DNA from: Escherichia phage vB_vPM_PD06
Reading direction: 5' to 3' (one strand)
Length of the DNA stretch: 64,000 nucleotides
Sequence record: NC_052653.1
A model generated the notes under the pieces. It ran no database searches. It saw only the letters and a program-made list of their open reading frames with translations, and was not told the DNA's origin. Position numbers and translations under genes: made by a program. Shown one piece after another: positions 30,770 through 59,320 of the stretch (positions are counted from its first letter, which is position 1; every line of letters starts with the position of its first letter).

Positions 30770-30882
30770 AATAAATACTGTTAAGTTGAAATGCTTTATT
30801 AGAATTGTGCGTTAAGGAGTCGCACCCCTCCATCTCAGAAGGAACTAGGCTTGTTCTTCGAAGACACCGCTGGCACGGAGTT

Positions 30883-30958
30883 TGGTCGTGGTAAACGGAG
30901 TCGAACCGTTGTTTCTCGATTATCGGTCGAGTGTACTAACCATCTGTACGATACCACA
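30883..30958 (-). tRNA. tRNA-Ile (anticodon GAT)
   Basis: Hand fold: 7 bp acceptor (U1-G72), T arm AACGG/TTCGACT/CCGTT, anticodon stem CTCGA/TCGAG, loop CCGATAA (C at position 33 is unusual), CCA encoded. Confidence 0.55.
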
Positions 30959-30963
30959 ATAAT

Positions 30964-31060
30964 TGGCAGCAAGGTGAGGAATCGAACCCCTTGATCTATG
31001 GTTTGGAGCCATATTGAGTACCATACTCTTTTAAATCTACCCAGCTATGAGTTCCTTGAG
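30964..31060 (-). ncRNA. tRNA-like sequence with Trp-type (CCA) anticodon hairpin, non-canonical 5' half
   Basis: T arm AGGGG/TTCGATT/CCTCA, 3' acceptor CCTTGCT-G-CCA, perfect hairpin TATGG-CTCCAAA-CCATA and D-like GAGT...ACTC, but no matching 5' acceptor strand at canonical distance. Confidence 0.3.
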
Positions 31061-31104
31061 GTGTCAATGTAATTTAATCATTACACCAGAAGGGAGGTAT
31101 TTAG

Positions 31105-31183
31105 TGGAGGCGGGAATCGGATTTGAACCGATGATCTCCAGCATATGAAACTGGCGAGGACGACCAGACTCCTCTATCCCGCG
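31105..31183 (-). tRNA. tRNA with CAT anticodon (elongator Met or Ile2 type)
   Basis: T arm ATCGG/TTCAAAT/CCGAT, anticodon stem CCAGT/GCTGG, loop TTCATAT, 11-nt D loop; position 1-72 is an unpaired C-C. Confidence 0.5.
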
Positions 31184-31198
31184 CAATCTGTAATAATT

Positions 31199-31283
31199 TG
31201 GTAGCTAAGGTGAGACTCGAACTCACAATCCCTTGGGGCAATACGTTCTAAGCGTATCGTGTATACCATTCCACCACTTAGCC
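31199..31283 (-). tRNA. tRNA-Leu (anticodon TAG), type II
   Basis: 85 nt; acceptor GGCTAAG/CTTAGCT, anticodon stem ATACG/CGTAT, loop CTTAGAA, long variable arm, T arm GTGAG/TTCGAGT/CTCAC, CCA encoded. Confidence 0.6.
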
Positions 31284-31360
31284 ATAATAAGTACACCACT
31301 GTAAGAAGCCTCAATGTGCTATTGACAGTTAACCAAGTCTACTCCTTGGATGGTGTTATT

Positions 31361-31435
31361 TGGTGCAGAGAGATGGTAACGATCCATCCTTTCTACCTTT
31401 TCAGGGTAGCACTAATCCGTCTCAGCTATCTCTGC
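31361..31435 (-). tRNA. tRNA-Phe (anticodon GAA)
   Basis: Perfect acceptor GCAGAGA/TCTCTGC, anticodon stem CTACC/GGTAG, loop CTGAAAA; T loop ATCGTTA is atypical. Confidence 0.5.
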
Positions 31436-31440
31436 AAATT

Positions 31441-31516
31441 TGGTCAGTGCGGCAGGACTCGAACCTGCGACCTGAAGCGTCCAAGGCTCCCACGCTACCA
31501 ACTGCGCTACGCACTG
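31441..31516 (-). tRNA. tRNA-Pro (anticodon TGG)
   Basis: 76 nt; acceptor CAGTGCG/CGCACTG, D arm GCGC/AGTTGGTA/GCGT, anticodon loop CTTGGAC, T arm GCAGG/TTCGAGT/CCTGC, CCA encoded. Confidence 0.7.
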
Positions 31517-31523
31517 TAAATCT

Positions 31524-31598
31524 TGGCTGGAGATCTAGGAATCGAACCTAGTCATCACGACTTCAAAGGCCGTTGCCTTCCCACTAGGCTAATCTCCA
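31524..31598 (-). tRNA. tRNA-Gln (anticodon TTG)
   Basis: 75 nt; acceptor TGGAGAT/ATCTCCA, anticodon stem ACGGC/GTCGT, loop CTTTGAA, T arm CTAGG/TTCGATT/CCTAG, CCA encoded. Confidence 0.6.
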
Positions 31599-32029
31599 AT
31601 AAATTACTTCAGTGTTACCACAAAGTGACGAACTGCTTTTCGTGCAGCAGAAGCCAGAGGCTTAGCATACTTAAGTTCATCTTTTTCCATTATAAATTCT
31701 CTTTTAAATGAAAATGCAGGACTTATTGGCATTGCCTGCGCAAGCCCTCAAGGGGAACATAGGTTTTTGGATATTTAACGACCAGGATAACCATAAACCC
31801 GTCATCATTCACATTCAAGAGGTACACCATAAAACTGCCGGGGTCTTAAAACTATAATGATTCGCAAATCATTAATCAGACAGTTCGATGGCTCCTCGAT
31901 TTTAGCTCACACTAAGGCAGTGAATCTCCAATAAACTAAAAAATCACTTAAAAAGAACCGCTAGAGTTTGAAGGAGAAAACCATGAGCGAAAAGAGAAAT
32001 TTTCTCTAGCGATTCCATTTAAATAATCT

Positions 32030-32104
32030 TGGAGCGAGTAACAGGACTTGAACCTGCACCTGGAGGGTGGAAACCTCATATGCTACCATTAACACTATAC
32101 CCGC
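32030..32104 (-). tRNA. tRNA-Gly (anticodon TCC)
   Basis: 75 nt; acceptor GCGGGTA/TACTCGC, anticodon loop TTTCCAC closed by a 4 bp stem with one mismatch, T arm GCAGG/TTCAAGT/CCTGT, CCA encoded. Confidence 0.5.
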
Positions 32105-32159
32105 TTAACAATATTACTCTAACATACTATTAGCCCCTTTGTCAAGAGGCTTTTGATAC

Positions 32160-32489
32160 TTATTTTAAAATAGTAGATGCACCACGTCTGTTTAGATATG
32201 CAATAGTAAAGTCCAAATCACCTATTTCTTCAGGTTCCCACTGACCTTCTAAGCCATAACAAGAACAATGATATGCGTGTACTTCATAAAACAAAGATGT
32301 TTTCATATCATAAAAATAAACGTGAGATTCACCTTCATAATATGCACAATCATAAGTGGCAGAAAGAATTACAATGTTATCCTTATCTAACTCTACTTCA
32401 TAATATCTTTCAACATCTTCAATATCATCAAAACCATCGAAAACATTGATATTAAAATATTTCTCTAACTCTTTTTCTGTCACATACAC
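32160..32489 (-). CDS. hypothetical protein inside tRNA array
   Basis: 109 aa acidic, Tyr/Cys-rich ORF between tRNA-Gly and tRNA-Thr. Confidence 0.45.
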   Translation of the reverse strand: MYVTEKELEKYFNINVFDGFDDIEDVERYYEVELDKDNIVILSATYDCAYYEGESHVYFYDMKTSLFYEVHAYHCSCYGLEGQWEPEEIGDLDFTIAYLNRRGASTILK

Positions 32490-32506
32490 TCCTTTAGAGT
32501 TAAAAT

Positions 32507-32581
32507 TGGTGCTCCCACAAGGACTCGAACCCTGATAAGTTGCTTACAAGGCAACCGTAATAGCCGTTATACGATAGGAGC
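32507..32581 (-). tRNA. tRNA-Thr (anticodon TGT)
   Basis: 75 nt; acceptor GCTCCTA/TGGGAGC, anticodon stem GTTGC/GCAAC, loop CTTGTAA, T arm CAGGG/TTCGAGT/CCTTG, CCA encoded. Confidence 0.6.
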
Positions 32582-32587
32582 AATACT

Positions 32588-32664
32588 TGGACTCGGCAGG
32601 ATTCGATACCTGCAATTCCAGAAGCCTCTTGGCGACTGGGGGTTTACCTTAACTCTACAAGTCC
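32588..32664 (-). ncRNA. tRNA-like sequence, non-canonical interior
   Basis: 7 bp acceptor-like pairing GGACTTG/CGAGTCC and perfect T stem GCAGG/CCTGC around 8-nt loop TATCGAAT, but no canonical 5-7-5 anticodon arm. Confidence 0.25.
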
Positions 32665-32671
32665 ATAATTC

Positions 32672-32756
32672 TGGCGATGGATCAAGGATTTGAACCTTGC
32701 TAGAACTTTCGTTCACGGATTAACAGTCCGTCGCCCAACCACTAGGCCAATCCATC
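32672..32756 (-). tRNA. tRNA with Asn anticodon (GTT) and a long variable arm (type II-like)
   Basis: 85 nt; acceptor GATGGAT/ATCCATC, anticodon arm ACGGA-CTGTTAA-TCCGT, 15-nt variable region GAACGAAAGTTCTAG forming a GAAC/GTTC stem with GAAA loop, T arm CAAGG/TTCAAAT/CCTTG, CCA encoded. Confidence 0.5.
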
Positions 32757-32763
32757 TTTAATT

Positions 32764-32850
32764 TGGTGCAGGTAGTTGGACTCGAACCAACGAAGCCCCG
32801 AAGGGCAAGAGATTTACAGTCTCCAGCAATTGCCGCTATGCGATACCTAC
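32764..32850 (-). tRNA. tRNA-Tyr (anticodon GTA), type II
   Basis: 87 nt; acceptor GTAGGTA/TACCTGC, anticodon stem GGAGA/TCTCT, loop CTGTAAA, variable arm GCCC-TTCG-GGGC, T arm GTTGG/TTCGAGT/CCAAC, CCA encoded. Confidence 0.65.
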
Positions 32851-32855
32851 GTGTT

Positions 32856-32931
32856 TGGTACATCGTGAAGGATTCGAACCTTCGACCTTGGAGTTAAAAG
32901 CACCTTGCTCTACCAACTAAGCTAACGATGT
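32856..32931 (-). tRNA. tRNA-Lys (anticodon TTT) with weakly paired anticodon stem
   Basis: 76 nt; perfect acceptor ACATCGT/ACGATGT, D arm GCTT/AGTTGGTA/GAGC, T arm GAAGG/TTCGAAT/CCTTC; anticodon loop CTTTTAA flanked by AGGTG/CTCCA with two mismatches. Confidence 0.5.
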
Positions 32932-33065
32932 ATAAATTATCTTTAAAATAGCCAGTGTTTGCGGCACTTAGCTATGAAGTATTGGGGTATCGGTAAAGTG
33001 GTTACCGCCACTTGCCGAAAGTTTACTCTGCTAAAGTAAGATTACAAGCTACATTAAAGATAACT

Positions 33066-33151
33066 TGGCGGTAGATGTAGGACTTGAACCTACACGCCGT
33101 TTCCGACGACAGTTTAGCAAACTGTTGTGGCTACCATTTCACCAATCTACC
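33066..33151 (-). tRNA. tRNA-Ser (anticodon GCT), type II
   Basis: 86 nt; acceptor GGTAGAT/ATCTACC, anticodon stem ACAGT/ACTGT, loop TTGCTAA, variable arm CGTCG-GAAA-CGGCG, T arm GTAGG/TTCAAGT/CCTAC, CCA encoded. Confidence 0.65.
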
Positions 33152-33159
33152 GTTCTTAA

Positions 33160-33312
33160 TTATTCAAAACAACCGGAATCTTTTTGTTCTGCTTTTACCA
33201 TACGAATATTTTTACCATCTTCAGATTGTTGAAGATTAGAATACTCATAAACAACTTTATTATCTACAATCTTAACTCCGGTAACAACCTGTCCAATAGT
33301 TTTATAATTCAT
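33160..33312 (-). CDS. small hypothetical protein (50 aa)
   Basis: Six-frame ORF 33160-33360 overlaps tRNA-Ser at its 5' end; internal ATG at 33312 has AGGAG upstream. Confidence 0.3.
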   Translation of the reverse strand: MNYKTIGQVVTGVKIVDNKVVYEYSNLQQSEDGKNIRMVKAEQKDSGCFE

Positions 33313-33330
33313 AAAGCTCCTAGTTGAATT

Positions 33331-33420
33331 TGGAGGAAGATAATGGAGTCGAACCATCACCGTATCGCTACAATGGGCCAGGGTTCAAACCTGGTTGCGC
33401 ACCGCTGCGCCCTACCTTCC
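33331..33420 (-). tRNA. tRNA-Ser (anticodon TGA), type II
   Basis: 90 nt; acceptor GGAAGGT/ATCTTCC, anticodon stem CCAGG/CCTGG, loop TTTGAAC, ~19-nt variable arm, T arm GATGG/TTCGACT/CCATT, CCA encoded. Confidence 0.6.
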
Positions 33421-33435
33421 CGTTATCATACTTTA

Positions 33436-33465
33436 AATCTAACATAAAACTATCTTGCTTGTCAA
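33436..33465 (-). promoter_or_regulatory. candidate sigma70-like promoter inside tRNA array
   Basis: Minus strand TTGACA, 18-nt spacer, TAGATT; upstream of tRNA-Ser(TGA). Confidence 0.3.
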
Positions 33466-33483
33466 GTAGTTTTTAAAACTTTT

Positions 33484-33565
33484 TGGTCGGGGTGACAGGA
33501 TTCGAACCTGCATACTCCAATTACTCGGTTAACGCCTGATTAGAAGTCAGGTGAGATACACCCCG
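33484..33565 (-). ncRNA. tRNA-Arg(TCT)-like sequence lacking a canonical D arm
   Basis: 7 bp GC-rich acceptor CGGGGTG/CACCCCG, T arm GCAGG/TTCGAAT/CCTGT, perfect hairpin CCTGA-CTTCTAA-TCAGG, but only 7 nt between acceptor and that hairpin and a 23-nt insert before the T arm. Confidence 0.35.
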
Positions 33566-33637
33566 TTTTCACAGTAACTATAACAAAAAACTAAGTGAAT
33601 GTCAAGATATTTTTACTAAAATTATTATTTAAATTGA

Positions 33638-33743
33638 AGCCTAGTTATGGAATCGAACCATATTTCGTATTTAGTTAGACAAAGCGGTCTAACATATTTT
33701 TCAGGCTTTGATGGCCTCGGAATTACCAAATACCCTACTAGGC
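33638..33743 (-). ncRNA. 106-nt tRNA-like element
   Basis: T arm TATGG/TTCGATT/CCATA and exact 7 bp acceptor pairing GCCTAGT/ACTAGGC 106 nt apart; interior has hairpins AGGC-CATCAAA-GCCT and GTTAGAC-CGCTTT-GTCTAAC; no CCA encoded. Confidence 0.25.
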
Positions 33744-33745
33744 GT

Positions 33746-33831
33746 TGGTGCAAGTGGAGGGATTCGAACCCTCAATCATTTAAGCGTTGCGTTTTAAGCA
33801 CAATGTGTATCACCAATTCCACCACACTTGC
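33746..33831 (-). tRNA. tRNA-Leu (anticodon TAA), type II
   Basis: 86 nt; acceptor GCAAGTG/CACTTGC, anticodon stem TTGTG/CGCAA, loop CTTAAAA, T arm GAGGG/TTCGAAT/CCCTC, CCA encoded. Confidence 0.6.
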
Positions 33832-33862
33832 ATATAGGAGATGCATAGCATCTCCTTTTAAA

Positions 33863-33938
33863 TGGTGGTTCCCCAGGGTTACAATCCCTGCCCTCGACAC
33901 TTATGAGGTGTGCGCTCTCGTCAGTGAGCTATGGAACC
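33863..33938 (-). tRNA. tRNA with CAT anticodon (second copy; Met or Ile2 type)
   Basis: 76 nt; D arm GCTC/GAGC perfect, anticodon loop CTCATAA, T stem CAGGG/CCCTG with atypical loop ATTGTAA, acceptor has one mismatch at 7-66. Confidence 0.45.
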
Positions 33939-33945
33939 TTGAATA

Positions 33946-34212
33946 TTAAGCATACTGGGTCATTTCACCAGCTTCGCGTTTCTCCAGAAGAACTGTAATC
34001 AAAGCAATAGCTGCTTCTTCTTCGTGAGGAAGCCCCATTTCATCCAGAAGAGCAAGGAAGTCAATTACCAAACTTTCTGTTTTAAGGCTAACGCTACCAT
34101 TTTCGTTTTCAGTAAGAACTGATTCAGGTTCAAAAATAAAGATTGCTCCACCTTTATTATCAATCAATACGTGCTTCTCAATCAGTTCTTTACCATAAGT
34201 ACGTTCTGTCAT
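33946..34212 (-). CDS. hypothetical protein
   Basis: 88 aa acidic ORF. Confidence 0.4.
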   Translation of the reverse strand: MTERTYGKELIEKHVLIDNKGGAIFIFEPESVLTENENGSVSLKTESLVIDFLALLDEMGLPHEEEAAIALITVLLEKREAGEMTQYA

Positions 34213-34392
34213 AGTTTTCTCCTTTTTGTTTAACTTGGGCTTATCTTAGCAAATAACTAGCTATGTTGTCAACTAGTTTTTACAATATTTTTTCTTGATC
34301 TGTAACCTAGTGTATAACCGCATACAAAGGATACAATAGCAATAAAAACAGATAAGCCAAAAATAATTTCTGTAGACATACTGTTTCCTTAA

Positions 34393-34614
34393 TTATGTGA
34401 AATCTAATTCCTCCTCTGGTGCTGTGTAATTTAGAAGAAGATCAGTTACACTTTGATGTTGATAAACCCTTTCGGGACTGTCATCGAATGCCAAACTTGT
34501 ACAAATCGAGCATAGATCCGACTCTTGAATATTACCATTCCTGTCTCTACGGGAATGATTAGTCAAGTGTCTGTTACAGGCTCGGCAACGAAAATAAAAA
34601 TTATGTTGTTTCAT
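34393..34614 (-). CDS. small Cys-rich (zinc-finger-like) protein
   Basis: 73 aa with CRACNRH...CSIC cysteine pairs. Confidence 0.4.
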   Translation of the reverse strand: MKQHNFYFRCRACNRHLTNHSRRDRNGNIQESDLCSICTSLAFDDSPERVYQHQSVTDLLLNYTAPEEELDFT

Positions 34615-34685
34615 AAATCCTTCGTGAAGCCCATCCAGGGCAGTTGTAGGCTCTCCTTACCTTAATCTTATCACGAAGTTTTTAT

Positions 34686-36419
34686 TTAGTCAACCTGGAT
34701 GGTTCCCATAGTACGAAGAACCTCTACATCAACACGGTTGCGGATATCAGTGAATGTTTCATCACGACCTTCTACTTGTGGTGTAATAACCTTACCATTC
34801 TTGAAGATAACTTGTAACTCATTGTCTTCATCCTGGATATCTTTAAAAGAAAGATTATCTACAAGAGAAAGATTACCATTGGTATCATTAACAACCTTAA
34901 TAAAACCTTTTGCAGAGCGTTTACCAGGATCAGTTTTAGGCTCCTTACTTACCAAAATTTCGTGTTCACCGATGATACTACCTGTTGCTTTAACAGCAAA
35001 ACCAAAAGTATCTCGTGTATTGAACTGATAAGTATAACTACCAACACCAAATACAATATTGGAAGCTGCAAAACCTTTCTTCTTCAGTCGGCGTAAGATC
35101 TCGTGTTCTCGTTCAACAGTAATAGAATCACCATAAATCATACCGATATGCTGATCAAGAACCTTGTAGCCTTTTCGGTTGATAGTACCACCAAACACTT
35201 CCCAAAGGATTTGAATAGAACCTACTGCTTCACAATAAGGAATCTCATAAGTTTCATCAATACAGTCAGCAACACTGCAATCCTGAAGAACATTGTAATA
35301 CTTATTAACATCAGCCAAATGAACTACTTCAGTGGCTGTCGCAATACCATTATTTAAGAGGTCTTGATAGTTATCAAAAGATTCAACATTGTATCCTGCA
35401 ACAACTTTAACCGGATCTCCTGAATCTGGACGAATAACAAGACGACCATTTCGTGACATAATGGAATCTTTCAATTCTACCAGAATGCGAGTCAATACAG
35501 CCCAATAGTCATAAGAGTCTGCTACATATGAACAAAAACCTTCTGGAACAATTTCTTCGATATAACGACGAAGAAACTCTTTTTCTGCTACATAACGAAG
35601 CCCATCTACATCATCTTTAAGATGTGGGAAATGTTTCTTCAGATCTTCAACAATAGATCCAATGTTAGTCGTTGCTACTGAATGTTCTGTTGCCGGAATC
35701 GAACCTGCAACAAACTGATCATAATCAATACCATAATAGTCATGCACAGTTTCAATAGCCAGAATATTATCTGTTCCTGTGAACGATGCCAAGTGAGCGA
35801 TACCACTCTTATAACCATCTTCGATATTACTTAAACCACGTAGGCTAAAATCATGACACTGGAAGTTAACGTGATCAATATTATCACACGTTGCCATCGC
35901 ATATGCCATAGCGATACGCTTATACTGAAAAGCTGCTGTGGCATTAGTCATTGTCTTCCAAGTTTCATCTGACAACAGTGTTTCCACATAGTTAGTTAAC
36001 CAAAAGAATTTTTCTAAAGTATTATGCACAGTAAACACAGGAACACCAATAGGACACAAAACACCTTCTGGCAGAGATCGAACTTCCAGCGGAAGATAAC
36101 CTAAATCGTGCAATTCTCCCCAACATTCCGCAGAAGGAGCAGAAGCACCTAACGCATTTTTAGACATACGATAAAATTTATTTACTGCTGCACTACGAGA
36201 CATTTTAAAGAAGCTATCCCACATAGTTACAAGAGCATCAGTGACTGCTCGACGAATACCTAAAACAATCACACCACGTGCTTCACGATCTGCATAGTGT
36301 GCAAAGTTTTTATCATTACGAGGAGTTAAATTAGAGAAAATAAGTTTTGTATTTTGGTTGTACATCTGCTTGTGACCAGGTTTGTACCAATCAGTAGCAA
36401 AAGGTGCAAAAATATTCAT
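34686..36419 (-). CDS. nadV: nicotinamide phosphoribosyltransferase (NAMPT/NadV family)
   Basis: 577 aa; N-terminal TDWYKPGH motif and RPDSGDP motif characteristic of NAMPT-type phosphoribosyltransferases. Confidence 0.75.
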   Translation of the reverse strand: MNIFAPFATDWYKPGHKQMYNQNTKLIFSNLTPRNDKNFAHYADREARGVIVLGIRRAVTDALVTMWDSFFKMSRSAAVNKFYRMSKNALGASAPSAECWGELHDLGYLPLEVRSLPEGVLCPIGVPVFTVHNTLEKFFWLTNYVETLLSDETWKTMTNATAAFQYKRIAMAYAMATCDNIDHVNFQCHDFSLRGLSNIEDGYKSGIAHLASFTGTDNILAIETVHDYYGIDYDQFVAGSIPATEHSVATTNIGSIVEDLKKHFPHLKDDVDGLRYVAEKEFLRRYIEEIVPEGFCSYVADSYDYWAVLTRILVELKDSIMSRNGRLVIRPDSGDPVKVVAGYNVESFDNYQDLLNNGIATATEVVHLADVNKYYNVLQDCSVADCIDETYEIPYCEAVGSIQILWEVFGGTINRKGYKVLDQHIGMIYGDSITVEREHEILRRLKKKGFAASNIVFGVGSYTYQFNTRDTFGFAVKATGSIIGEHEILVSKEPKTDPGKRSAKGFIKVVNDTNGNLSLVDNLSFKDIQDEDNELQVIFKNGKVITPQVEGRDETFTDIRNRVDVEVLRTMGTIQVD

Positions 36420-36490
36420 AGTTATGTCTCCTTGTTTGTTAATGTGGGAGTATCTTACTAAGCATACTCCCTATTGTCAACACTTATTAT

Positions 36491-37384
36491 TTAAAAATTC
36501 CACACGTATGGAGATACAATTTGTTGTTGCAAATCTGACTGATTCTTAACAAGAACACCAGAATCTTCTTGGATGTTATCTTCCCACACATTAAGAGAAT
36601 GAATGCAGTCAAAGTGCTCACTTAACTCTTTAAGACCTTTAGAAAAGATACCGTGTGTAACATATAGCTCAATCTTACCTGCGTTACGAGCACGTAGCAC
36701 TTTAGCCAATTCGATAAAAGTTCTACCACCATCACAGATATCATCTACGATCATCAGGTTACGCTTATTGAAATCCTGTACAGAAATGTCTGTACGAACA
36801 ATAGCACCTGTTGCGGTATCTCTAACCTTCTCTGCACAGAACACATCTAAAGACATTTTCTTAGATAATTTAAATATTTTCTTAAGAGCACCACCATCAG
36901 GGCTAACAAGAGCAAAATTCTCCATACGTAACTTCCACTTTAAAGTTTCGTAAGCAATCTCTTCTTGAGGCATTACACAGAGTCTGTCAAACACTGCTGG
37001 AGTAACATCACTATGCGGATCAGCAACGATAACACGTGAGAAATTTAATGAATTAATTATAGAAGCAAATGCTTTAACTCCGAATGCTTCCCCAGGCTCA
37101 CACACTCTGTCTTGTCGTGCATACGGCACATACAACATGAGTAAATCAACACAATATGGTTTATGATATAGCATATTGTCCAATGCATTCTTAGTCATAA
37201 CCAAAGTCATCAAGTCTTTAGCAGATCTTACTTCTAAAGTGAGTAAGATTCTGTCTGTAGCATGATTGAAACCTGATAGATTCGTATCTAATTGAACATG
37301 TTGTTCTCCACCAGAGAATGTAAACACTTTAACGTCTACATCAGTAACATAACAGTCAACACCATGCAGAATACTAACTTTCAT
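36491..37384 (-). CDS. prs: ribose-phosphate pyrophosphokinase (PRPP synthetase)
   Basis: 297 aa; PRPP-binding motif MIVDDICDGGRTF; adjacent to nadV. Confidence 0.7.
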   Translation of the reverse strand: MKVSILHGVDCYVTDVDVKVFTFSGGEQHVQLDTNLSGFNHATDRILLTLEVRSAKDLMTLVMTKNALDNMLYHKPYCVDLLMLYVPYARQDRVCEPGEAFGVKAFASIINSLNFSRVIVADPHSDVTPAVFDRLCVMPQEEIAYETLKWKLRMENFALVSPDGGALKKIFKLSKKMSLDVFCAEKVRDTATGAIVRTDISVQDFNKRNLMIVDDICDGGRTFIELAKVLRARNAGKIELYVTHGIFSKGLKELSEHFDCIHSLNVWEDNIQEDSGVLVKNQSDLQQQIVSPYVWNF

Positions 37385-37422
37385 TCTTTATCTCCTTAGT
37401 TGCGTTAGGACTTTATGTTCTC

Positions 37423-37452
37423 TACTCTACATACAGATAGATCTAAAGTCAA
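37423..37452 (-). promoter_or_regulatory. candidate sigma70-like promoter for prs-nadV
   Basis: Minus strand TTGACT, 18-nt spacer, TAGAGT, about 40 nt upstream of prs start with AAGGAG RBS. Confidence 0.35.
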
Positions 37453-37460
37453 TAGATATT

Positions 37461-37510
37461 TATTATTTAATTAATAATAAAATTAATAAATAATTAATAA
37501 ATAATCTATT
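37461..37510. repeat. AT-rich tandem repeats (TTAATAA/ATAAATA units) in divergent intergenic region
   Basis: ttaattaataataaaattaataaataattaataaataatc between divergently transcribed prs and the plus-strand early genes. Confidence 0.5.
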
Positions 37511-37804
37511 GTTAGTATAGAGCATGTATGTTAGTATTATAGATATAACATAGTGCTATATGTAGACTACTCAGTTGTCTGTTAGATCATGTATCACAAG
37601 ATTAGATAACACCCCCTCGCTGCGCTCGGCGTTTTTCGGGGGTTAGGGTAGCATACTTTTTTGCGTTTGTCAACACCTTTTTGGATTATTTTTAAGTACA
37701 ACCTGAACCTCCTAAAAACGATTGTAACGAGTTTTACTGTGAGGTAAGGTGATTGCATATCTTAGAGGCTATTAGCTCGTTACAGAGCCATACAGGAGGG
37801 AATA

Positions 37805-38173
37805 ATGAGGGTCACACGTTACGTTAGAAGTGAAACAATAGATGGAGGCATAATGTATGCTTTCTACGATGATAAAACTTTTTGTTCTGCATTCTATGAA
37901 GAAGACTTGTCTACGGAATGGCAACAAATCATCTTCTTACTTGACATTTTGAAAAGAAGAGATAACTTTGAAGGTATTGAGTGGACAGTGGGAGGCAAAG
38001 TTATCGTTGCAGGTTTAAGCAAACATGAGTTGCTTGACTTAGACTGTAAACTTTGTAATTATCAATTCTCAAAACGTTTACCATTAGAAAGACAGTTAGG
38101 AGTTGAGATTCATGTTGACTTGGGCGATGGAGTATCCTATACTCTCAACAATCATAGTGCTGACGTTAATTAG
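37805..38173 (+). CDS. hypothetical early protein
   Basis: 122 aa ORF, first gene of plus-strand block. Confidence 0.4.
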   Translation: MRVTRYVRSETIDGGIMYAFYDDKTFCSAFYEEDLSTEWQQIIFLLDILKRRDNFEGIEWTVGGKVIVAGLSKHELLDLDCKLCNYQFSKRLPLERQLGVEIHVDLGDGVSYTLNNHSADVN

Positions 38174-38239
38174 TGGGATCACAAAGTGCGTAACAAGCAT
38201 TTGCGATTGTTTAACACATTTTAAACAAAGGAAAAATAA

Positions 38240-38437
38240 ATGAATCAAACTATGCAAACAATCTATAGAGTAATCCTTGGTGAGTTCCATGTTGTTAAGT
38301 CAACATTGAATTATGAAGAAGCTAAAGAGAATTTCTTGCTATGGGTTGAAGCATTCTCTGAAGTTGAAAAGGTAAGTTACAATTGTGTAACTTTAACTGC
38401 TGATCACGTACCTGTATTGGAGTTTATTAAGAAATGA
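38240..38437 (+). CDS. hypothetical protein
   Basis: 65 aa ORF with upstream AAGGAAAAA. Confidence 0.35.
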   Translation: MNQTMQTIYRVILGEFHVVKSTLNYEEAKENFLLWVEAFSEVEKVSYNCVTLTADHVPVLEFIKK

Positions 38438-38673
38438 AAAAAGAAATTTTAACTGATGTAACATATTCTTGTATTAGCAAAGGCGGTTTATATCGTGTAG
38501 TTGGCTTTCCTAAACCAGCGGGTGTATCTAAAGTATTTGATCCTGTTGTGATCTACGAAGATGTAAGGACTGGTCAACAGTATTGGCGATTCCAGCAAGA
38601 TTTCTTACACCGCATGGAGGTTGTTGATGGCGAAAACACCGAAGAAGCGATCCGTAACAAAGCGCGCATCTAA
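38434..38673 (+). CDS. hypothetical protein
   Basis: 79 aa ORF; start overlaps previous stop. Confidence 0.35.
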   Translation: MKKEILTDVTYSCISKGGLYRVVGFPKPAGVSKVFDPVVIYEDVRTGQQYWRFQQDFLHRMEVVDGENTEEAIRNKARI

Positions 38674-39237: not shown

Positions 39238-39428
39238 TGTTCCTTATTTATTCAGGTAAAGCCAAATACATGCAAGGTGTGAAGCGTGTAAAAGTAGTAG
39301 ATACTGTAACTATAGGAAAATCCTTTATTCTTTATTTGTTTTATATCAATGGAGAAAGATTTGCTGTTTCTAAGAAGTTGGTAGATAATGGTAAAACTTG
39401 GAAAGAAGAGAAACAGGAAGGGGGTTGA
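39237..39428 (+). CDS. hypothetical protein
   Basis: 63 aa ORF. Confidence 0.3.
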   Translation: MFLIYSGKAKYMQGVKRVKVVDTVTIGKSFILYLFYINGERFAVSKKLVDNGKTWKEEKQEGG

Positions 39429-39430
39429 TA

Positions 39431-39772
39431 GTGGCTAAAATTCTTTGGTTAGACGATTTAAGAGATCCTAAAGATTATGGTTATGAGGATGCCATTTGGT
39501 TAAAATCTTTTGAGGATTGGTTATCTTTTGTTTCAGATGAAGATAATTTCAATAATATCTCAGAGATACACTTCGATAATGATCTTGGAGAAGATCAAGA
39601 AGGATATCATGCGTTCTTAGACGTAGAATGTATGTTGTACGCGGGTGAATGGGATGCTCTTAAAACTATCTATGTTCATACATCAAATCCTTCTGCTGCT
39701 GGTAAATATATGTTAGCCAAGGAAAATTTTATTTCATCCTATGGTGTTGAAATTAAACGTGTTAACTATTAA
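39431..39772 (+). CDS. hypothetical protein
   Basis: GTG start with GGAAGGGGG upstream; 113 aa. Confidence 0.35.
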   Translation: MAKILWLDDLRDPKDYGYEDAIWLKSFEDWLSFVSDEDNFNNISEIHFDNDLGEDQEGYHAFLDVECMLYAGEWDALKTIYVHTSNPSAAGKYMLAKENFISSYGVEIKRVNY

Positions 39773-39781
39773 GGAGGTGTT

Positions 39782-39928
39782 ATGCTTTATGTTATTTGGG
39801 TAGATGAAGGGGATGGGTTTTATATATACAAACACACTAACCATTGGCCCGATGTAGAAAAAGCACTTGCAACTTTTGAAGATTGCTTTTACGATATACA
39901 TACAGACGAAGAGTATGTAGAAAATTGA
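39782..39928 (+). CDS. small hypothetical protein (48 aa)
   Basis: ATG with AAGGAGG RBS; below ORF-track cutoff. Confidence 0.35.
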   Translation: MLYVIWVDEGDGFYIYKHTNHWPDVEKALATFEDCFYDIHTDEEYVEN

Positions 39929-40287
39929 TGTGCGCTACTAATCAACATGATATTTGTTACCAACCTCTTACTTGGATTGGTGAGGATCACTATGCTCAAC
40001 GTGTTATAGTCTGCGCTGCGAATAAGTATATTCTCAACAATGGCGAAGAGTTAATTATTCCTTGTGTTAGGCATGCAAATCCTGTACTATCTGCACAACT
40101 TAATGTTTTAAAAGATGCAGGATTGATCGATAAACTGTTTTGCTTACCTGATAATCAAGGGTTTATTGATCAATATTATAATTGGTGGAGTCGCAAAGAT
40201 GCTTATATCATTGCAGATAACGCCAAACAAATTAACTATGAAAGAAATGGTCACGACAGTGAACTATTCAGCGAGGGATTATACTAA
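39928..40287 (+). CDS. hypothetical protein
   Basis: ATG overlapping previous stop (TGATG); 119 aa. Confidence 0.35.
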   Translation: MCATNQHDICYQPLTWIGEDHYAQRVIVCAANKYILNNGEELIIPCVRHANPVLSAQLNVLKDAGLIDKLFCLPDNQGFIDQYYNWWSRKDAYIIADNAKQINYERNGHDSELFSEGLY

Positions 40288-40838
40288 TGTTTATTACAAG
40301 TGATTTGCATTTTATGCACAAACGTATTCGAGAGTTTGCTCCTGAATATCGCCCGTGGGAAGATATGGAGCATATGACAGAAGCACTGATTGAAGCATGG
40401 AATAAATGTGCTACGAGTCCTGGTGTCAAGATGTGGCATTTGGGCGACTTCTGTTTCGGGACTGAAGAAGATACCCGTAAAATTGCTTCACGTCTTCAAG
40501 GTGATATCACTTACTGTGTTGGGAACCATGATTACAGCAAACACCGAGAAGTGCTTGCAGAATATGGCGAGGTGGTGTATTATGACGAAGTGAAATATCA
40601 GAAACTGTTCTTCGTCTTAAGTCATTACCCTATGGCTGCTTGGAATAAACAAGGGCATGGATCAATCATGCTACACGGGCACTCTCACGGATCATTCCCT
40701 GATCATTTGTATGGGAAAATGTTGGATGTTGGTTGGGATGCACACGGAAAAATCTTGCATTTTGACGAAATCATCTCTATTATGGATAAGCGTGATATTG
40801 TTGTTGTAGACCATCATAAGATAATCAAAGGAGATTAA
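40287..40838 (+). CDS. metallophosphoesterase (calcineurin-like)
   Basis: 183 aa with GDxxxG...GNHD...GHSH metal-binding motifs. Confidence 0.6.
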   Translation: MFITSDLHFMHKRIREFAPEYRPWEDMEHMTEALIEAWNKCATSPGVKMWHLGDFCFGTEEDTRKIASRLQGDITYCVGNHDYSKHREVLAEYGEVVYYDEVKYQKLFFVLSHYPMAAWNKQGHGSIMLHGHSHGSFPDHLYGKMLDVGWDAHGKILHFDEIISIMDKRDIVVVDHHKIIKGD

Positions 40839-40839
40839 G

Positions 40840-41772
40840 GTGGCTAAGTTCAATTGTGATGACCTGATTGCAAAAGGTTTAGTGCATAAAAAAGAAGTTA
40901 AATCTGGAGAGTATGCTGGTCTTGCTGTACTTAAATACAAAAACAATGTATTCTGGGATAACTTGTGGAACGTTGACAAACGACTCCTAGATTGTCGTGG
41001 GTTGGTTGTTGACTCAGAAGACAATGTTGTTATCTGGCCTTTTACTAAAATCTTTAATCGTTTTGAGAATGGTACAGATCTTCCAGCAGACCAGCTTGTA
41101 GATGCTGTCCGTAAAGTAAACGGTTTTATGGCATCTGTAGGTGTGTACAAAGGGCAACTTATTGTATCAACAACAGGGAGCCTAGAGTCAGATTTTGCAA
41201 CTCTTGCCAAGAACCATATTGTTTCCGAGTGTGATGACATAGAATATTTCATTAAGTGGACAGAAAGTGCAAAAGCAACTTTCCTTTTTGAAATCTGTGA
41301 TCCTTCTGATCCACATATTGTCGAAGAAGAACCAGGCGCATACTTAATTGGAGCAAGAATTCAAAATCTTGATGGGACAAGTTTCATGCTACCCGAAGGT
41401 GTGCTTGATGGGATTGCATCTATTACAAAATTTAAACGTCCTGAAGTTTATCCGATGATTAAATTTTCAGATGTTGTTGAAATGTCTAAACATTGTAAGC
41501 ACGAAGGGTTTGTTGTTCGGGAAACAAACTATCCGTTTAACTTGCTGTTAAAGATTAAGTCACCATATTATCTTGCTAAGAAATTCCTTATGCGTGGTGG
41601 CAATAAGAAGTGGGATATGATTTGGGACAACCCAAAAAATGCTAAACAAATTGTTGACGAAGAATATTATACTTTGCTAGAATGGCTTCGAAACAACTTT
41701 ACTAAGACTCAATGGGCTGCTTTAGATCCACAAGAGCGACGTAAAGAAATAGAAAACTTCTTTGGAGGCTAA
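40840..41772 (+). CDS. Rnl2-like RNA ligase (nucleotidyltransferase)
   Basis: 310 aa; VDAVRKVNG resembles the T4 Rnl2 motif I region (VAREKIHG); EGFVVRE and LKIK motifs downstream. Confidence 0.5.
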   Translation: MAKFNCDDLIAKGLVHKKEVKSGEYAGLAVLKYKNNVFWDNLWNVDKRLLDCRGLVVDSEDNVVIWPFTKIFNRFENGTDLPADQLVDAVRKVNGFMASVGVYKGQLIVSTTGSLESDFATLAKNHIVSECDDIEYFIKWTESAKATFLFEICDPSDPHIVEEEPGAYLIGARIQNLDGTSFMLPEGVLDGIASITKFKRPEVYPMIKFSDVVEMSKHCKHEGFVVRETNYPFNLLLKIKSPYYLAKKFLMRGGNKKWDMIWDNPKNAKQIVDEEYYTLLEWLRNNFTKTQWAALDPQERRKEIENFFGG

Positions 41773-42177
41773 ATGAAACAACTTATCATTTTACGTGGTG
41801 TTTCAGGTGCAGGTAAATCTACAGTAGCAGAAATTATTTCTGAAGGTTATTGGCCTATCTGTGAGGCAGATCAATATCATTACACAGAAAGTGGTGTTTA
41901 CGATTGGAAGCCAGAGAATGTAGGTAAAGCACACGCATGGTGTCAGAGTATTGTTCGTGATGCTATGGTATCTAATATTAAAAAGATTATTGTCTCTAAC
42001 ACTTCAACCACAGAGAAAGAACTTAAACCTTATTTAACTCTTGCTGAAGAGTTTGGTTATCAAGTTATCTCCTTAGTTGTTGAAAATAGGCACGGTAACG
42101 ACTCAATTCATGAGGTTCCACAACATACTCGTGATCAGCAAGAGAAACGTCTTCGCAGTTCACTTAAGCTACAATAA
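41773..42177 (+). CDS. P-loop kinase (polynucleotide kinase-like)
   Basis: 134 aa; Walker A GVSGAGKST at N-terminus; directly follows the ligase. Confidence 0.5.
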   Translation: MKQLIILRGVSGAGKSTVAEIISEGYWPICEADQYHYTESGVYDWKPENVGKAHAWCQSIVRDAMVSNIKKIIVSNTSTTEKELKPYLTLAEEFGYQVISLVVENRHGNDSIHEVPQHTRDQQEKRLRSSLKLQ

Positions 42178-57246: not shown

Positions 57247-57444
57247 ATGATGCTAGATCAACTGATCAATGCTCCTCGCGTAACAGTAAGTCCAAAAACA
57301 TTTGCATCACTTTTAGAAGATGCTAGAGAGGTTTATAACTTTACTGAAGAAGAGCTTCCTGTTCCTGTTGAAAAAGGTTCCAGATGGTTGTTTTATGAAG
57401 GTATTATTTTTACTGAAGGGAATAATTGGAAGGAGACTAAATGA
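57247..57444 (+). CDS. hypothetical protein
   Basis: ATG with AGGAGG RBS; 65 aa. Confidence 0.3.
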   Translation: MMLDQLINAPRVTVSPKTFASLLEDAREVYNFTEEELPVPVEKGSRWLFYEGIIFTEGNNWKETK

Positions 57445-58430: not shown

Positions 58431-58438
58431 GGAGGAGT

Positions 58439-59308: not shown

Positions 59309-59320
59309 GGGGGAGATTAA

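What the first reader, a model, noticed from the sequence alone, without database searches (positions are those of the whole stretch)
34686..37384. NAD+ salvage pair (NAMPT plus PRPP synthetase) flanking the tRNA array
NadV-type NAMPT and Prs together convert nicotinamide and ribose-5-phosphate into NMN. Phage NAD-reconstitution pathways have been described as a way to survive NAD-depleting defense systems. No NMN adenylyltransferase was recognised in this window.
Basis: partly seen in the sequence, partly recalled or inferred. Interest (0 to 1): 0.5.

Follow-up and report, generated by a model that had tools for sequence, protein, structure and literature searches.

The report
Known phage NAD-rebuilding operon (NARP1)
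These two adjacent phage genes are most likely not a PRPP synthetase plus an NMN-making enzyme but the already published two-enzyme NARP1 pathway (Adps + Namat), which rebuilds NAD+ directly from the ADP-ribose and nicotinamide left by bacterial NAD+-destroying defences, so no NMN adenylyltransferase is needed.

Summary
Two intact minus-strand ORFs, a Prs-like one (36491-37384) and a NAMPT-like one (34686-36419), lie just upstream of a tRNA array. The window is about 99% identical to phi92-like E. coli myophages (Justusliebigvirus). The anti-defence NAD+ idea holds, but the chemistry is wrong. The pair matches NARP1: Adps pyrophosphorylates ADP-ribose, and Namat joins ADPR-PP to nicotinamide to give NAD+ directly. 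That explains the "missing" NMNAT. The NAMPT-like protein carries the published Namat clamp signature (GSYTYQFNTRD) and the full catalytic core. The Prs-like protein keeps the Adps catalytic lysine, has a PP-loop identical to Bas63 Adps, lacks the Prs C-terminal module and fails every Prs equivalog model. In 80 related viral loci, 79 pair with an Adps and all carry GS+aromatic. Nine unlinked Nampts carry neither. No NMNAT, Nudix, Macro or RyR gene was found. The discovery paper's supplementary tables already list the orthologues from PHB05, phi92 and two BASEL phages as NARP1. Activity in this lineage is inferred, not measured. Verdict: already known, low interest.

The parts
36491..37384 (-). 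adps: ADP-ribose pyrophosphate synthetase (PRPS-like, 297 aa), the first gene of NARP1
   Evidence: ORF. TIGR01251 scores 119 bits, but every Prs equivalog model fails (for example 98 bits against a 296-bit cut-off). PHROG 619 gives 5e-91. It is 40% identical to the structurally characterised ICP1 Adps, 31% to Bas63 Adps and 25% to E. coli Prs. K186 equals the ICP1 catalytic K185. F23, R90, H124, D163, D214, D215 and D218 are conserved. The PP-loop ICDGGRTF is identical to Bas63. The alignment with E. coli Prs ends at residue 248, and the tail has no similarity to Prs alpha11-alpha12. There is one residue of difference from the PHB05 protein that Osterman Table S1 lists in the Adps clade.
34686..36419 (-). 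namat: nicotinamide ADP-ribose transferase (NAMPT-like, 577 aa), the second gene of NARP1
   Evidence: ORF. The best solved relative is SPbetaL1 Namat (9W5X/9W5W) at 2e-119, against 2e-50 for mammalian NAMPT. All core residues named in the structure paper are conserved: D10, Y12, F191, S192, R194, D217, A243, H246, R330, D332, G430 and D431. The selectivity-clamp helix reads GSYTYQFNTRD at 460-470, with aromatic Y462 and F466. There are four residues of difference from the PHB05 protein listed as 'Adps-associated' in Table S2.
37424..37452 (-). sigma-70-like promoter candidate for the operon (TTGACT-17-TAGAGT), below an AT-rich tract
   Evidence: Consensus scan, 9 of 12 matches; sequence read. 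This is inferred only. Consensus matches are not evidence of function.
37391..37397 (-). Shine-Dalgarno AAGGAGA, 6 nt before the adps ATG
   Evidence: Read directly from the sequence.
36420..36490 (-). 71-nt adps-namat spacer. It holds a promoter-like TTGACA-17-TAAGAT (36480-36452), which overlaps an 8-bp hairpin GGGAGTAT/ATACTCCC (36471-36446), and a Shine-Dalgarno AAGGAGA (36433-36427) 7 nt before the namat ATG.
   Evidence: The hairpin and SD were read from the sequence. The hairpin was not folded and no function has been tested.

Best explanation
The two genes form a minimal two-gene NARP1 operon (NAD+ reconstitution pathway 1) of a phi92-like E. coli myophage. When a host defence NADase (SIR2, TIR or SEFIR type) cleaves NAD+ into ADP-ribose and nicotinamide, Adps (36491-37384) transfers the beta,gamma-pyrophosphate of ATP onto the terminal ribose of ADP-ribose to give ADPR-PP. 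Namat (34686-36419) then displaces that pyrophosphate with nicotinamide and regenerates NAD+ in one step. NMN is not an intermediate, so no NMN adenylyltransferase is needed. Shown here: gene presence and order, family membership, conservation of the catalytic and specificity residues, tight Adps-Namat linkage across relatives, and absence of NMNAT. Inferred from homologues: the enzymatic activities and the anti-defence phenotype. Those homologues are SPbetaL1 and ICP1 in vitro, and Bas63, FADO and engineered SBSphiJ in vivo.
For: (1) Literature. The pathway and its enzymology are established for homologues. Tables S1 and S2 of the discovery paper list the PHB05, phi92, alia, JohannJBalmer and PaulScherrer proteins as Adps-clade with Namat nearby, and the Namat homologues (PaulScherrer was seen only in S1) as 'Adps-associated'. 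The window proteins differ from the PHB05 ones by 1 and 4 residues. (2) Adps. The catalytic K186 and all acceptor residues are conserved. The PP-loop is identical to that of Bas63 Adps, whose operon was validated in vivo, whereas E. coli Prs has MIDTGGTL. It fails all Prs equivalog models and has no detectable alpha11-alpha12 module. (3) Namat. [quoted passage not shown] (4) My own association test. Of the 80 closest viral-contig homologues, 79 have an Adps gene 17-1,700 nt away and all 80 have GS[Y/F]. Nine homologues without an Adps neighbour have GGG, GGE or GTK instead, and three of them sit beside an annotated NMNAT or cytidyltransferase. (5) No NMNAT or Nudix was found in the window or in the 99%-identical PHB05 genome. 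(6) The gene order, adps then namat, with a 71-nt gap and strong ribosome-binding sites, matches Bas63 genes 79-80 and SPbetaL1 genes 190-191.
Against: Nobody has assayed the Justusliebigvirus enzymes; I found no paper that does. The catalytic residues of Adps are also conserved in true Prs, so the case for Adps rests on the PP-loop, the missing C-terminal module, the published clade placement and the linkage to Namat. It does not rest on a single diagnostic residue. ICP1 F92, an adenine contact, is Cys here, although it also varies in Bas63 and others. In the variable clamp loop, the residue after K37 is Asn rather than the aromatic seen in Bas63 (W) or Aeromonas 65.2 (Y). Namat here has insertions of 23 and about 57 residues that are absent from the solved structure. 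My association sample is the 80 best-scoring loci, so it is biased towards Namat-like proteins, and the contrast set is small (9). Motif position 7 is aromatic in only 63 of the 80.
Confidence: 0.9

Rival explanations
1. The pair is a genuine PRPP synthetase plus NAMPT that makes NMN from ribose-5-phosphate and nicotinamide. The last step to NAD+ is done by a host enzyme (NadR or PncC/NadD-NadE) or by an unrecognised phage NMNAT.
For: Generic family models and nearly all GenBank annotations give these names. SPbetaL1 Namat can make NMN from PRPP in vitro when ADPR-PP is absent. E. coli has NadR and PncC.
Against: The SPbetaL1 homologue gave no measurable product in the canonical Prs assay, and Bas63 rescue did not need pncC or nadR. 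The window protein fails every Prs equivalog model and lacks the Prs C-terminal module. The window Namat has the ADPR-PP selectivity clamp, which PRPP-preferring phage Nampts lack. Phage Nampts that do work through NMN are accompanied by an NMNAT in 94% of cases, and none is present here.
Confidence: 0.05
2. Dual use, which is not exclusive of NARP1. When ADP-ribose is available the pair runs NARP1. In cells without an active NADase, Namat uses host PRPP and nicotinamide to make NMN, which tops up NAD+ through host enzymes.
For: SPbetaL1 Namat keeps about half the NMN-forming activity of human Nampt, and clamp mutants retain it. The catalytic core is fully conserved in the window protein.
Against: When both donors were offered, only NAD+ was formed. 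No in vivo evidence exists for an NMN role in any NARP1 phage. ADPR-PP was seen only when a defence system was present.
Confidence: 0.2
3. The Prs-like gene is a nucleotide-supply auxiliary gene. It would boost PRPP for phage DNA synthesis, unrelated to NAD+, and its adjacency to the NAMPT-like gene would be incidental.
For: The window is rich in nucleotide-metabolism genes (ribonucleotide reductase, thymidylate synthase, thymidine kinase) by the annotation of the 99%-identical phage.
Against: Linkage to the NAMPT-like gene is near-universal: 79 of 80 loci here and 97% of the Adps clade in the literature. The protein is far from any Prs equivalog.
Confidence: 0.02

Closest known systems
NARP1 of Escherichia phage Bas63 (JohannRWettstein) genes 79-80 (Osterman et al., bioRxiv 10.1101/2024.02.11.579819)
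   Same: The host species and the gene order (adps then namat) are the same. The Adps PP-loop (ICDGGRTF) is identical. The clamp helix is of the same type (GSYTYQYMTRD against GSYTYQFNTRD). Both have Lys at the third position of the clamp loop, and both have a large insertion in Namat after the RPDSGDPV strand.
   Different: Identity is only 31% for Adps and 39-43% for Namat. The phage family differs (Felixounavirus against Justusliebigvirus). Bas63 has Trp after the clamp-loop Lys, where the window has Asn then Phe. The flanking small genes are not shared, and no tRNA lies within 20 kb in Bas63. Bas63 was tested genetically; this lineage was not.
SPbetaL1 Adps/Namat (in vitro enzymology; Namat structures 9W5X and 9W5W, PMC12774641)
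   Same: It is the best solved relative of the 577-aa protein (2e-119). Every NAM-, ribose-, phosphate- and adenine-contacting residue of the helix part of the clamp is conserved or conservatively replaced (F392 to Y462, Y396 to F466).
   Different: SPbetaL1 uses Arg40 as the loop stacking residue and the window has Lys37. The window Namat is 86 residues longer, with inserts at 255-277 and 343-399 and a clamp loop 6 residues longer. SPbetaL1 Adps has a divergent PP-loop (LSSFGGTF).
Vibrio phage ICP1 Adps (structures and mutagenesis, PMC13586617)
   Same: It is 40% identical. F18, R87, H121, D161, K185, D212, D213, I214, C215 and D216 are all conserved in the window protein, and both lack the PRPS alpha11-alpha12 module.
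   Different: ICP1 F92 is Cys95 here. The PP-loop tail is GGRT rather than AAS, and F223 is Glu. The window protein has a lineage-specific tail of about 45 residues.
NARP2 (Vibrio phage KVP40 Nampt plus NMNAT/Nudix)
   Same: The NAMPT fold and catalytic core are the same, and so is the purpose of restoring NAD+.
   Different: The KVP40-type Nampt is only about 29% identical. It has GGGLLQQLDRD in place of the aromatic clamp and a short loop, has no Adps neighbour, and needs an NMNAT, which is absent here.
Canonical bacterial Prs (E. coli prs) and NadV/NAMPT
   Same: The folds are shared, as are the conserved RQDR, DPH and DD motifs and the catalytic lysine.
   Different: Identity to E. coli Prs is 25-28% and the alignment ends at residue 248. 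The C-terminal regulatory and filament module is missing. The donor loop differs (ICDG against MIDT). Scores are far below the Prs equivalog cut-offs.

Membership tests
Adps (NARP1 enzyme 1) | PRPS-like fold, but outside canonical Prs orthologue groups | tested here: met
   TIGR01251 (generic subfamily) scores 119 bits against a cut-off of 113. All Prs equivalog and subfamily models are far below cut-off, for example PRK00934 at 98 against 296 and PRK01259 at 98 against 297. The phage family PHROG 619 gives 5e-91.
Adps (NARP1 enzyme 1) | Catalytic beta-hairpin lysine (ICP1 K185, SPbetaL1 K162) and acceptor-groove residues R87, H121, D161, D212, D213, D216 | tested here: met
   K186, R90, H124, D163, D214, D215 and D218 are present. 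These are necessary but not discriminating, because E. coli Prs has them too.
Adps (NARP1 enzyme 1) | Remodelled PP-loop donor site conserved among Adps homologues (ICP1 C215-S220) | tested here: met
   The window has I216-C217-D218-G219-G220-R221-T222-F223. This is identical to Bas63 Adps and shares DDICDG with ICP1, Thibault, KB57 and a Pseudomonas phage. E. coli Prs has DDMIDTGGTL.
Adps (NARP1 enzyme 1) | Absence of the PRPS C-terminal alpha11-alpha12 module (called a defining signature in PMC13586617) | tested here: met
   BLASTP against E. coli Prs stops at residue 248 of the query and 254 of Prs. The 48-residue tail gives no hit to the Prs C-terminus even at E<=100 and occurs only in the same phage lineage. 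This was tested by sequence only, with no structure.
Adps (NARP1 enzyme 1) | Placement in the phage Adps clade of the Prs/Adps tree | tested here: met
   This was a look-up, not a tree of my own. The PHB05, phi92, JohannJBalmer and PaulScherrer proteins are rows of Osterman Table S1 flagged 'Yes' for an associated Namat. The window protein differs from PHB05 by 1 residue.
Adps (NARP1 enzyme 1) | Namat gene in the immediate vicinity (97% of the clade) | tested here: met
   There is a 71-nt gap on the same strand. In my own sample, 79 of 80 related loci show the linkage.
Adps (NARP1 enzyme 1) | Converts ADP-ribose + ATP to ADPR-PP + AMP and does not make PRPP | not testable with these tools
   This needs purified protein and LC-MS.
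Namat (NARP1 enzyme 2) | NAMPT-like catalytic core (SPbetaL1 D13, Y15, F189, R192, D215, A242, catalytic His, R306, D308, G360, D361) | tested here: met
   D10, Y12, F191, R194, D217, A243, H246, R330, D332, G430 and D431 are present. This core is shared with Nampt, so it does not discriminate.
Namat (NARP1 enzyme 2) | [quoted passage not shown] | tested here: met
   The motif is GSYTYQFNTRD at 460-470. GS plus an aromatic residue occurs in 80 of 80 related viral loci (79 with an Adps neighbour, 1 at a contig edge) and in Aeromonas 65.2, and in 0 of 9 homologues without an Adps neighbour.
Namat (NARP1 enzyme 2) | Selectivity-clamp loop: third residue Arg, Lys or Tyr, with that residue or the next stacking on adenine | tested here: inconclusive
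   The third residue is K37, as in Bas63 K42, and the loop is long like other Namats. The next residue is Asn38, where Bas63 has Trp and Aeromonas 65.2 has Tyr; Phe39 follows. Which residue stacks cannot be decided without a dimer model containing ligand.
Namat (NARP1 enzyme 2) | Prefers ADPR-PP over PRPP and yields NAD+ directly | not testable with these tools
   This needs an enzyme assay with both donors.
NARP2 (Nampt + NMNAT) | An NMN adenylyltransferase (often fused to Nudix) encoded by the same phage | tested here: not met
   No CTP_transf_like or NUDIX hit in 25 window ORFs. tblastn of four phage NMNAT proteins against the window and the whole PHB05 genome gave only noise (E>=1.4). The PHB05 'nucleotidyltransferase' gp151 is PolyA_pol-like and weak.
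NARP2 (Nampt + NMNAT) | KVP40-type Nampt without an adenine clamp | tested here: not met
   The window protein is 29% identical to the KVP40-like Nampt and carries the clamp, whereas the KVP40 type has GGGLLQQLDRD.
NARP3 (PnuC-like transporter + NadR-like enzyme) | A two-gene PnuC/NadR module | tested here: not met
   No such product appears in the annotation of the 99%-identical PHB05 genome or among the Pfam hits of the scanned window ORFs. Not every small ORF was scanned.
NARP1-AP (NARP1 with ADPR-1''-phosphate phosphatase Adpp) | A Macro-domain gene within two genes of Adps/Namat | tested here: not met
   The two genes on each side (73 aa and 88 aa downstream; 122 aa and 65 aa on the divergent side) were checked. 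The 73-, 88- and 122-aa proteins have no Macro hit, and the 65-aa ORF was not scanned but is too short to hold a Macro domain. The only Macro-domain gene in PHB05 (gp179) lies about 67 kb from the pair, in a Ter/PRTase cluster outside the window.
Canonical ribose-phosphate diphosphokinase (Prs) | Reaches an orthologue-level Prs model and has the C-terminal regulatory module | tested here: not met

The most novel reading that the evidence does not exclude
The Justusliebigvirus Namat could be a functionally distinct subtype. It has a 23-residue insert (255-277), an insert of about 57 residues after the RPDSGDPV strand (343-399; Bas63 has a larger one at the same site), the longest clamp loop seen here, and Asn rather than an aromatic residue at the proposed stacking position. 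These additions might alter donor specificity (for example acceptance of other ADP-ribose derivatives) or add regulation that is absent from the solved SPbetaL1 enzyme. A related possibility concerns the Macro-domain protein of this phage lineage, which lies far from the operon. It might act in trans as the ADPR-1''-phosphate phosphatase, giving a 'split' NARP1-AP.
Probability: 0.1. Interest if true: 0.4.

Novelty: already known. Interest (0 to 1): 0.15.

Why it matters
The main value is correction. Public records for this and about 2,000 other phage genomes still call these genes ribose-phosphate pyrophosphokinase and nicotinamide phosphoribosyltransferase. Reading the pair as NARP1 removes the puzzle and gives concrete predictions for a phage group used in therapy-oriented collections. 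It should escape SIR2-, TIR- and SEFIR-type NAD+ depletion. Because it lacks an operon-linked Macro-domain phosphatase, it should remain sensitive to aRES-type defences, which produce ADPR-1''-phosphate. No new biology follows from the finding itself.

Tried and rejected
(1) I tried overall similarity to solved structures as a discriminator and rejected it. 9KE8, of unknown origin (no paper found), scores 340 bits against 403 for SPbetaL1 Namat, yet its motif is GAQTYQRNTRD with no aromatic at positions 3 or 7. The motif and gene linkage are the useful tests.

(2) I tested the small flanking ORFs as extra pathway components. The 73-aa CxxC protein (34393-34614), the 88-aa, 122-aa and 109-aa ORFs have no homologue near NARP1 in Bas63 or SPbetaL1, so they are lineage-specific neighbours.

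(3) I tested tRNA adjacency as part of the system. The Bas63 region around its NARP1 (30-80 kb) has no tRNA, so the adjacency is not conserved.

(4) I looked for NARP1 accessories (Macro/Adpp, RyR/RyDEP) and for NMNAT, Nudix, NadR and PnuC. None is in the window.

(5) The search for related loci with the KVP40-like Nampt returned only 2 loci, so I built the contrast class from low-identity hits of the phage collection instead.

(6) Rfam found nothing but tRNAs in 30000-38500.

(7) I did not run structure prediction or the large protein-database searches. The tool would not accept an alignment built from locus-derived sequences, and the verdict did not depend on them.
Full report
**Observation.** A 297-aa ORF lies at 36491-37384 and a 577-aa ORF at 34686-36419. 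Both are on the minus strand and 71 nt apart. The family assignments are real at the superfamily level. The larger protein hits Pfam NAPRTase (5e-38), NCBIfam PRK09198 (462 bits) and PHROG 448 (3e-188). The smaller hits TIGR01251 ribP_PPkin (119 bits, only just above the 113-bit cut-off) and PHROG 619 (5e-91). ARAGORN finds fifteen tRNA genes at 30883-33938 on the same strand, and Rfam confirms fourteen tRNAs at gathering score. The array begins about 750 nt downstream of the pair.

**Source of the window.** The stretch 34300-37500 is 99.5% identical over its full length to Escherichia phage vB_EcoM_PHB05. It is 97.6-99.3% identical to the other listed top matches among the 53 full-length phi92-like records, including the BASEL phage JohannJBalmer. 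These are Stephanstirmvirinae, genus Justusliebigvirus, with genomes of about 148 kb. The window maps to roughly 21-85 kb of PHB05 in reverse orientation.

**Why the names mislead.** The paper that discovered phage NAD+ reconstitution began from the same Pfam reading, Prs plus Nampt giving NMN, and then refuted it.
- Bas63 still overcame SIR2-HerA in a host lacking pncC and nadR.
- Infected defence-carrying cells accumulated a new metabolite, ADPR-pyrophosphate.
- The purified Prs-like enzyme of SPbetaL1 gave no measurable product in the canonical Prs assay, but pyrophosphorylated ADP-ribose.
- The Nampt-like enzyme joined ADPR-PP to nicotinamide to give NAD+ directly. When offered PRPP and ADPR-PP together, it made only NAD+.

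The enzymes were named Adps and Namat, and the pathway NARP1. Phage Nampts that really work through NMN form a separate clade (NARP2, the KVP40 type). In 94% of cases those phages also encode an NMNAT, and no phage was found with both pathways.

**This gene pair is already catalogued.** Supplementary Table S1 of that paper lists the Prs-like proteins of PHB05, phi92, JohannJBalmer and PaulScherrer among the Adps-clade sequences with a Namat nearby. Table S2 lists the NAMPT-like proteins of PHB05, phi92, alia and JohannJBalmer as 'Adps-associated'. The window proteins differ from the PHB05 ones by one residue in Adps and four residues in Namat.

**Independent test of the Prs-like protein.** I aligned it with the biochemically or genetically characterised Adps proteins (ICP1, SPbetaL1, Bas63), four more from Table S1, and E. 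coli Prs. The residue numbers quoted in the ICP1 structure paper all landed on the stated residues, which validates the mapping.
- The window protein keeps the catalytic lysine (K186 = ICP1 K185 = SPbetaL1 K162).
- It keeps the acceptor-groove residues F23, R90, H124, D163, D214, D215 and D218.
- These residues are also present in E. coli Prs, so they show an active enzyme but not which one.

The features that discriminate are as follows.
- The donor PP-loop is ICDGGRTF. This is identical to Bas63 Adps and shares DDICDG with ICP1, whereas E. coli Prs has MIDTGGTL.
- It fails every orthologue-level Prs model, scoring about 98 bits against cut-offs near 296.
- It lacks the C-terminal alpha11-alpha12 module, which the structure paper calls a defining signature of the family. 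BLASTP against E. coli Prs ends at residue 248. The lineage-specific 48-residue tail has no similarity to the Prs C-terminus even at E<=100.
- Identity is 40% to ICP1 Adps and 25% to E. coli Prs.

**Independent test of the NAMPT-like protein.** Its best solved relatives are 9W5X and 9W5W (2e-119), which are SPbetaL1 Namat. Mammalian NAMPT scores 2e-50. Similarity alone is not decisive, however. A third entry, 9KE8, scores 340 bits but lacks the Namat motif.

The structure paper defines an adenine 'selectivity clamp'. It consists of a conserved helix with the signature GSX-phi-X-phi-X-phi-TRD, aromatic at positions 3 and 7, and a variable loop that contributes one more stacking residue.
- In an alignment with SPbetaL1, Bas63 and a KVP40-like Nampt, all twenty SPbetaL1 residues named in the paper mapped correctly. 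The KVP40-like reference is validated by the match of its N-terminus to the KVP40 cloning primer.
- The window protein has the complete catalytic core: D10, Y12, F191, S192, R194, D217, A243, H246, R330, D332, G430 and D431.
- Its helix motif is GSYTYQFNTRD, with Y462 and F466 aromatic. The KVP40-like enzyme has GGGLLQQLDRD.
- The loop is only partly conclusive. It is long, like other Namats, and its third residue is Lys (K37), as in Bas63. The next residue is Asn, where Bas63 has Trp, and Phe follows.

**Does the motif really track Adps linkage?** I fetched the 80 best viral-contig relatives with 7-kb flanks.
- Seventy-nine contain an Adps homologue 17-1,700 nt from the NAMPT-like gene. The exception has its gene 52 nt from the contig end.
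- All 80 have GS followed by Tyr or Phe. Position 7 is Tyr, Phe or His in 63, and Cys, Met, Leu or Gly in the rest.

As a contrast I took low-identity homologues from the phage collection.
- Nine have no Adps within 7 kb: three KVP40-like, phT4A, Aeromonas 31, RCIP0023, Marchewka, XM05 and BONAISHI. All carry GGG, GGE or GTK at the motif.
- Three of these nine sit directly beside an annotated NMNAT or cytidyltransferase.
- Aeromonas phage 65.2 is equally distant (32% identity) but has an Adps 1.4 kb upstream, and its motif begins GSW.

The sample is biased towards close relatives and the contrast set is small. Even so, the association is clean, and the window protein falls on the Namat side.

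**Search for the 'missing' enzyme and for accessories.** Pfam scans of 25 window ORFs found no cytidylyltransferase/NMNAT, Nudix, Macro or RyR domain. tblastn with four phage NMNAT/Nudix proteins against the window and the complete PHB05 genome gave only noise, with E of 1.4 or worse. The PHB05 annotation has no NadR, PnuC or NMNAT.

The published NARP1 accessories are also absent from the operon. These are the Macro-domain ADPR-1''-phosphate phosphatase Adpp, defined as lying within two genes of the pair, and the RyR-domain glycosidase RyDEP. The only Macro-domain gene of PHB05 lies about 67 kb from the pair, inside a Ter/PRTase/HAD cluster outside the window. This is therefore a minimal two-gene NARP1.

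**Anatomy.**
- The order is adps then namat, as in Bas63 (genes 79-80) and SPbetaL1 (genes 190-191).
- Each gene has an AAGGAGA Shine-Dalgarno 6-7 nt before its ATG.
- A sigma-70-like site, TTGACT-17-TAGAGT, lies at 37452-37424 below an AT-rich tract.
- The 71-nt spacer holds a second promoter-like site that overlaps an 8-bp hairpin.
- The next terminator-like hairpin on this strand is at 30769-30751, after the tRNA array. Read-through into the array is therefore possible but untested.
- The small flanking ORFs have no counterpart next to NARP1 in Bas63 or SPbetaL1. Bas63 has no tRNA within 20 kb of its operon. Neither the small ORFs nor the tRNAs belong to the pathway.

**Mechanism, with shown and inferred steps separated.**
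- Shown here: both genes are intact. They carry the catalytic residues, and for Namat the specificity residues. They are tightly linked, as in validated systems, and no NMNAT accompanies them.
- Inferred from homologues: Adps converts ADP-ribose plus ATP to ADPR-PP plus AMP. Namat converts ADPR-PP plus nicotinamide to NAD+ plus pyrophosphate. The operon protects the phage from defences that split NAD+ into ADP-ribose and nicotinamide (SIR2-HerA, type I Thoeris, DSR1/2, SEFIR), but not from aRES, which yields ADPR-1''-phosphate.
- I found no paper that tests the phi92-lineage enzymes.

**Verdict.** The feature is an already published and already catalogued pathway in a well-sampled phage genus. 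Its only unexplained particulars are lineage-specific insertions in Namat and an atypical clamp-loop residue. Interest is low.

Noticed in passing
window 39398-42177 (+): An RNA-repair-type cassette lies about 2 kb beyond the NARP1 start codon, on the opposite (divergent) strand. It comprises a cREC_REC 'cyclic-phosphate processing receiver' protein (39398-39772, 3e-14), an unassigned 134-aa ORF, a calcineurin-like phosphoesterase (40287-40838), a T4 Rnl1-type RNA ligase (40840-41772, 6e-14) and an AAA_33 kinase (41773-42177). Together with the tRNA array and NARP1, this looks like a counter-defence neighbourhood that could repair tRNAs cut by anticodon nucleases.
   Followed up: partly
window 33487-33565 (-); also 33331-33420 and 33863-33938: Rfam calls a tRNA (40 bits) at 33487-33565 that ARAGORN did not report. 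Conversely, ARAGORN's tRNA-Ser(tga) at 33331-33420 and tRNA-Met(cat) at 33863-33938 are not in the Rfam gathering-score list. The array may hold 16 tRNA-like genes, some of them atypical.
   Followed up: no
window 36446-36480 (-): In the adps-namat spacer, a promoter-like TTGACA-17-TAAGAT overlaps an 8-bp hairpin (GGGAGTAT, 10-nt loop, ATACTCCC). No T-run follows it. It could be an internal promoter or an RNA processing or stability element. It was not folded or compared across relatives.
   Followed up: no
window 32116-34272 (-): Several strong TTGACA-N17/18-TAxxxT sites, many with an extended -10 TG, recur between tRNA genes and small ORFs (33605, 34272, 33465, 32145). The region has 34 promoter-like sites, against 22.4 +/- 5.2 in shuffles.
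   Followed up: no
window 34686-36419 (-), protein residues 41-46, 255-277 and 343-399: The Namat here is 86 residues longer than the solved SPbetaL1 enzyme. It has a clamp loop 6 residues longer, a 23-residue insert, and an insert of about 57 residues after the RPDSGDPV strand. Bas63 Namat has an even larger insert at that same site. The function of these inserts is unknown.
   Followed up: partly
window 34393-34614 (-): A 73-aa protein with CxxC...CxxC spacing lies immediately downstream of namat. It has a weak RecR zinc-finger hit and belongs to PHROG 37033 of unknown function. It is not found next to NARP1 in Bas63 or SPbetaL1.
   Followed up: partly
window 44233-44955 (+): A 240-aa protein annotated 'nucleotide pyrophosphohydrolase' in PHB05 has a PRA-PH/MazG-type domain (3e-7) and is not Nudix.
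   Followed up: partly
window 57441-60702 (+): Four consecutive genes correspond to PHB05 genes annotated as nucleotide-sugar epimerase, glucose-1-phosphate thymidylyltransferase, dTDP-4-dehydrorhamnose 3,5-epimerase and a second epimerase. That would be a near-complete dTDP-rhamnose-type pathway in a phage. This rests on the annotation of the relative only.
   Followed up: no
L004:12317-13129 and L002:45601-47816 (PHB05 genome, outside the window): The closest complete genome encodes a Sir2-family protein (1e-22). Elsewhere it has a Macro-domain protein (2e-7) next to a ComF-like PRTase_3 (1e-41) and a HAD hydrolase, in a TerC/tellurite-resistance cluster. These genes handle NAD+ or ADP-ribose and could interact with NARP1. 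For example, the Macro protein might act as a trans ADPR-1''-phosphate phosphatase.
   Followed up: partly
PDB entry 9KE8/9KEO: A solved 'nicotinamide phosphoribosyltransferase' of unknown origin scores 340 bits against the window protein, but its motif is GAQTYQRNTRD, intermediate between the Namat and Nampt forms. No paper mentioning it was found.
   Followed up: partly
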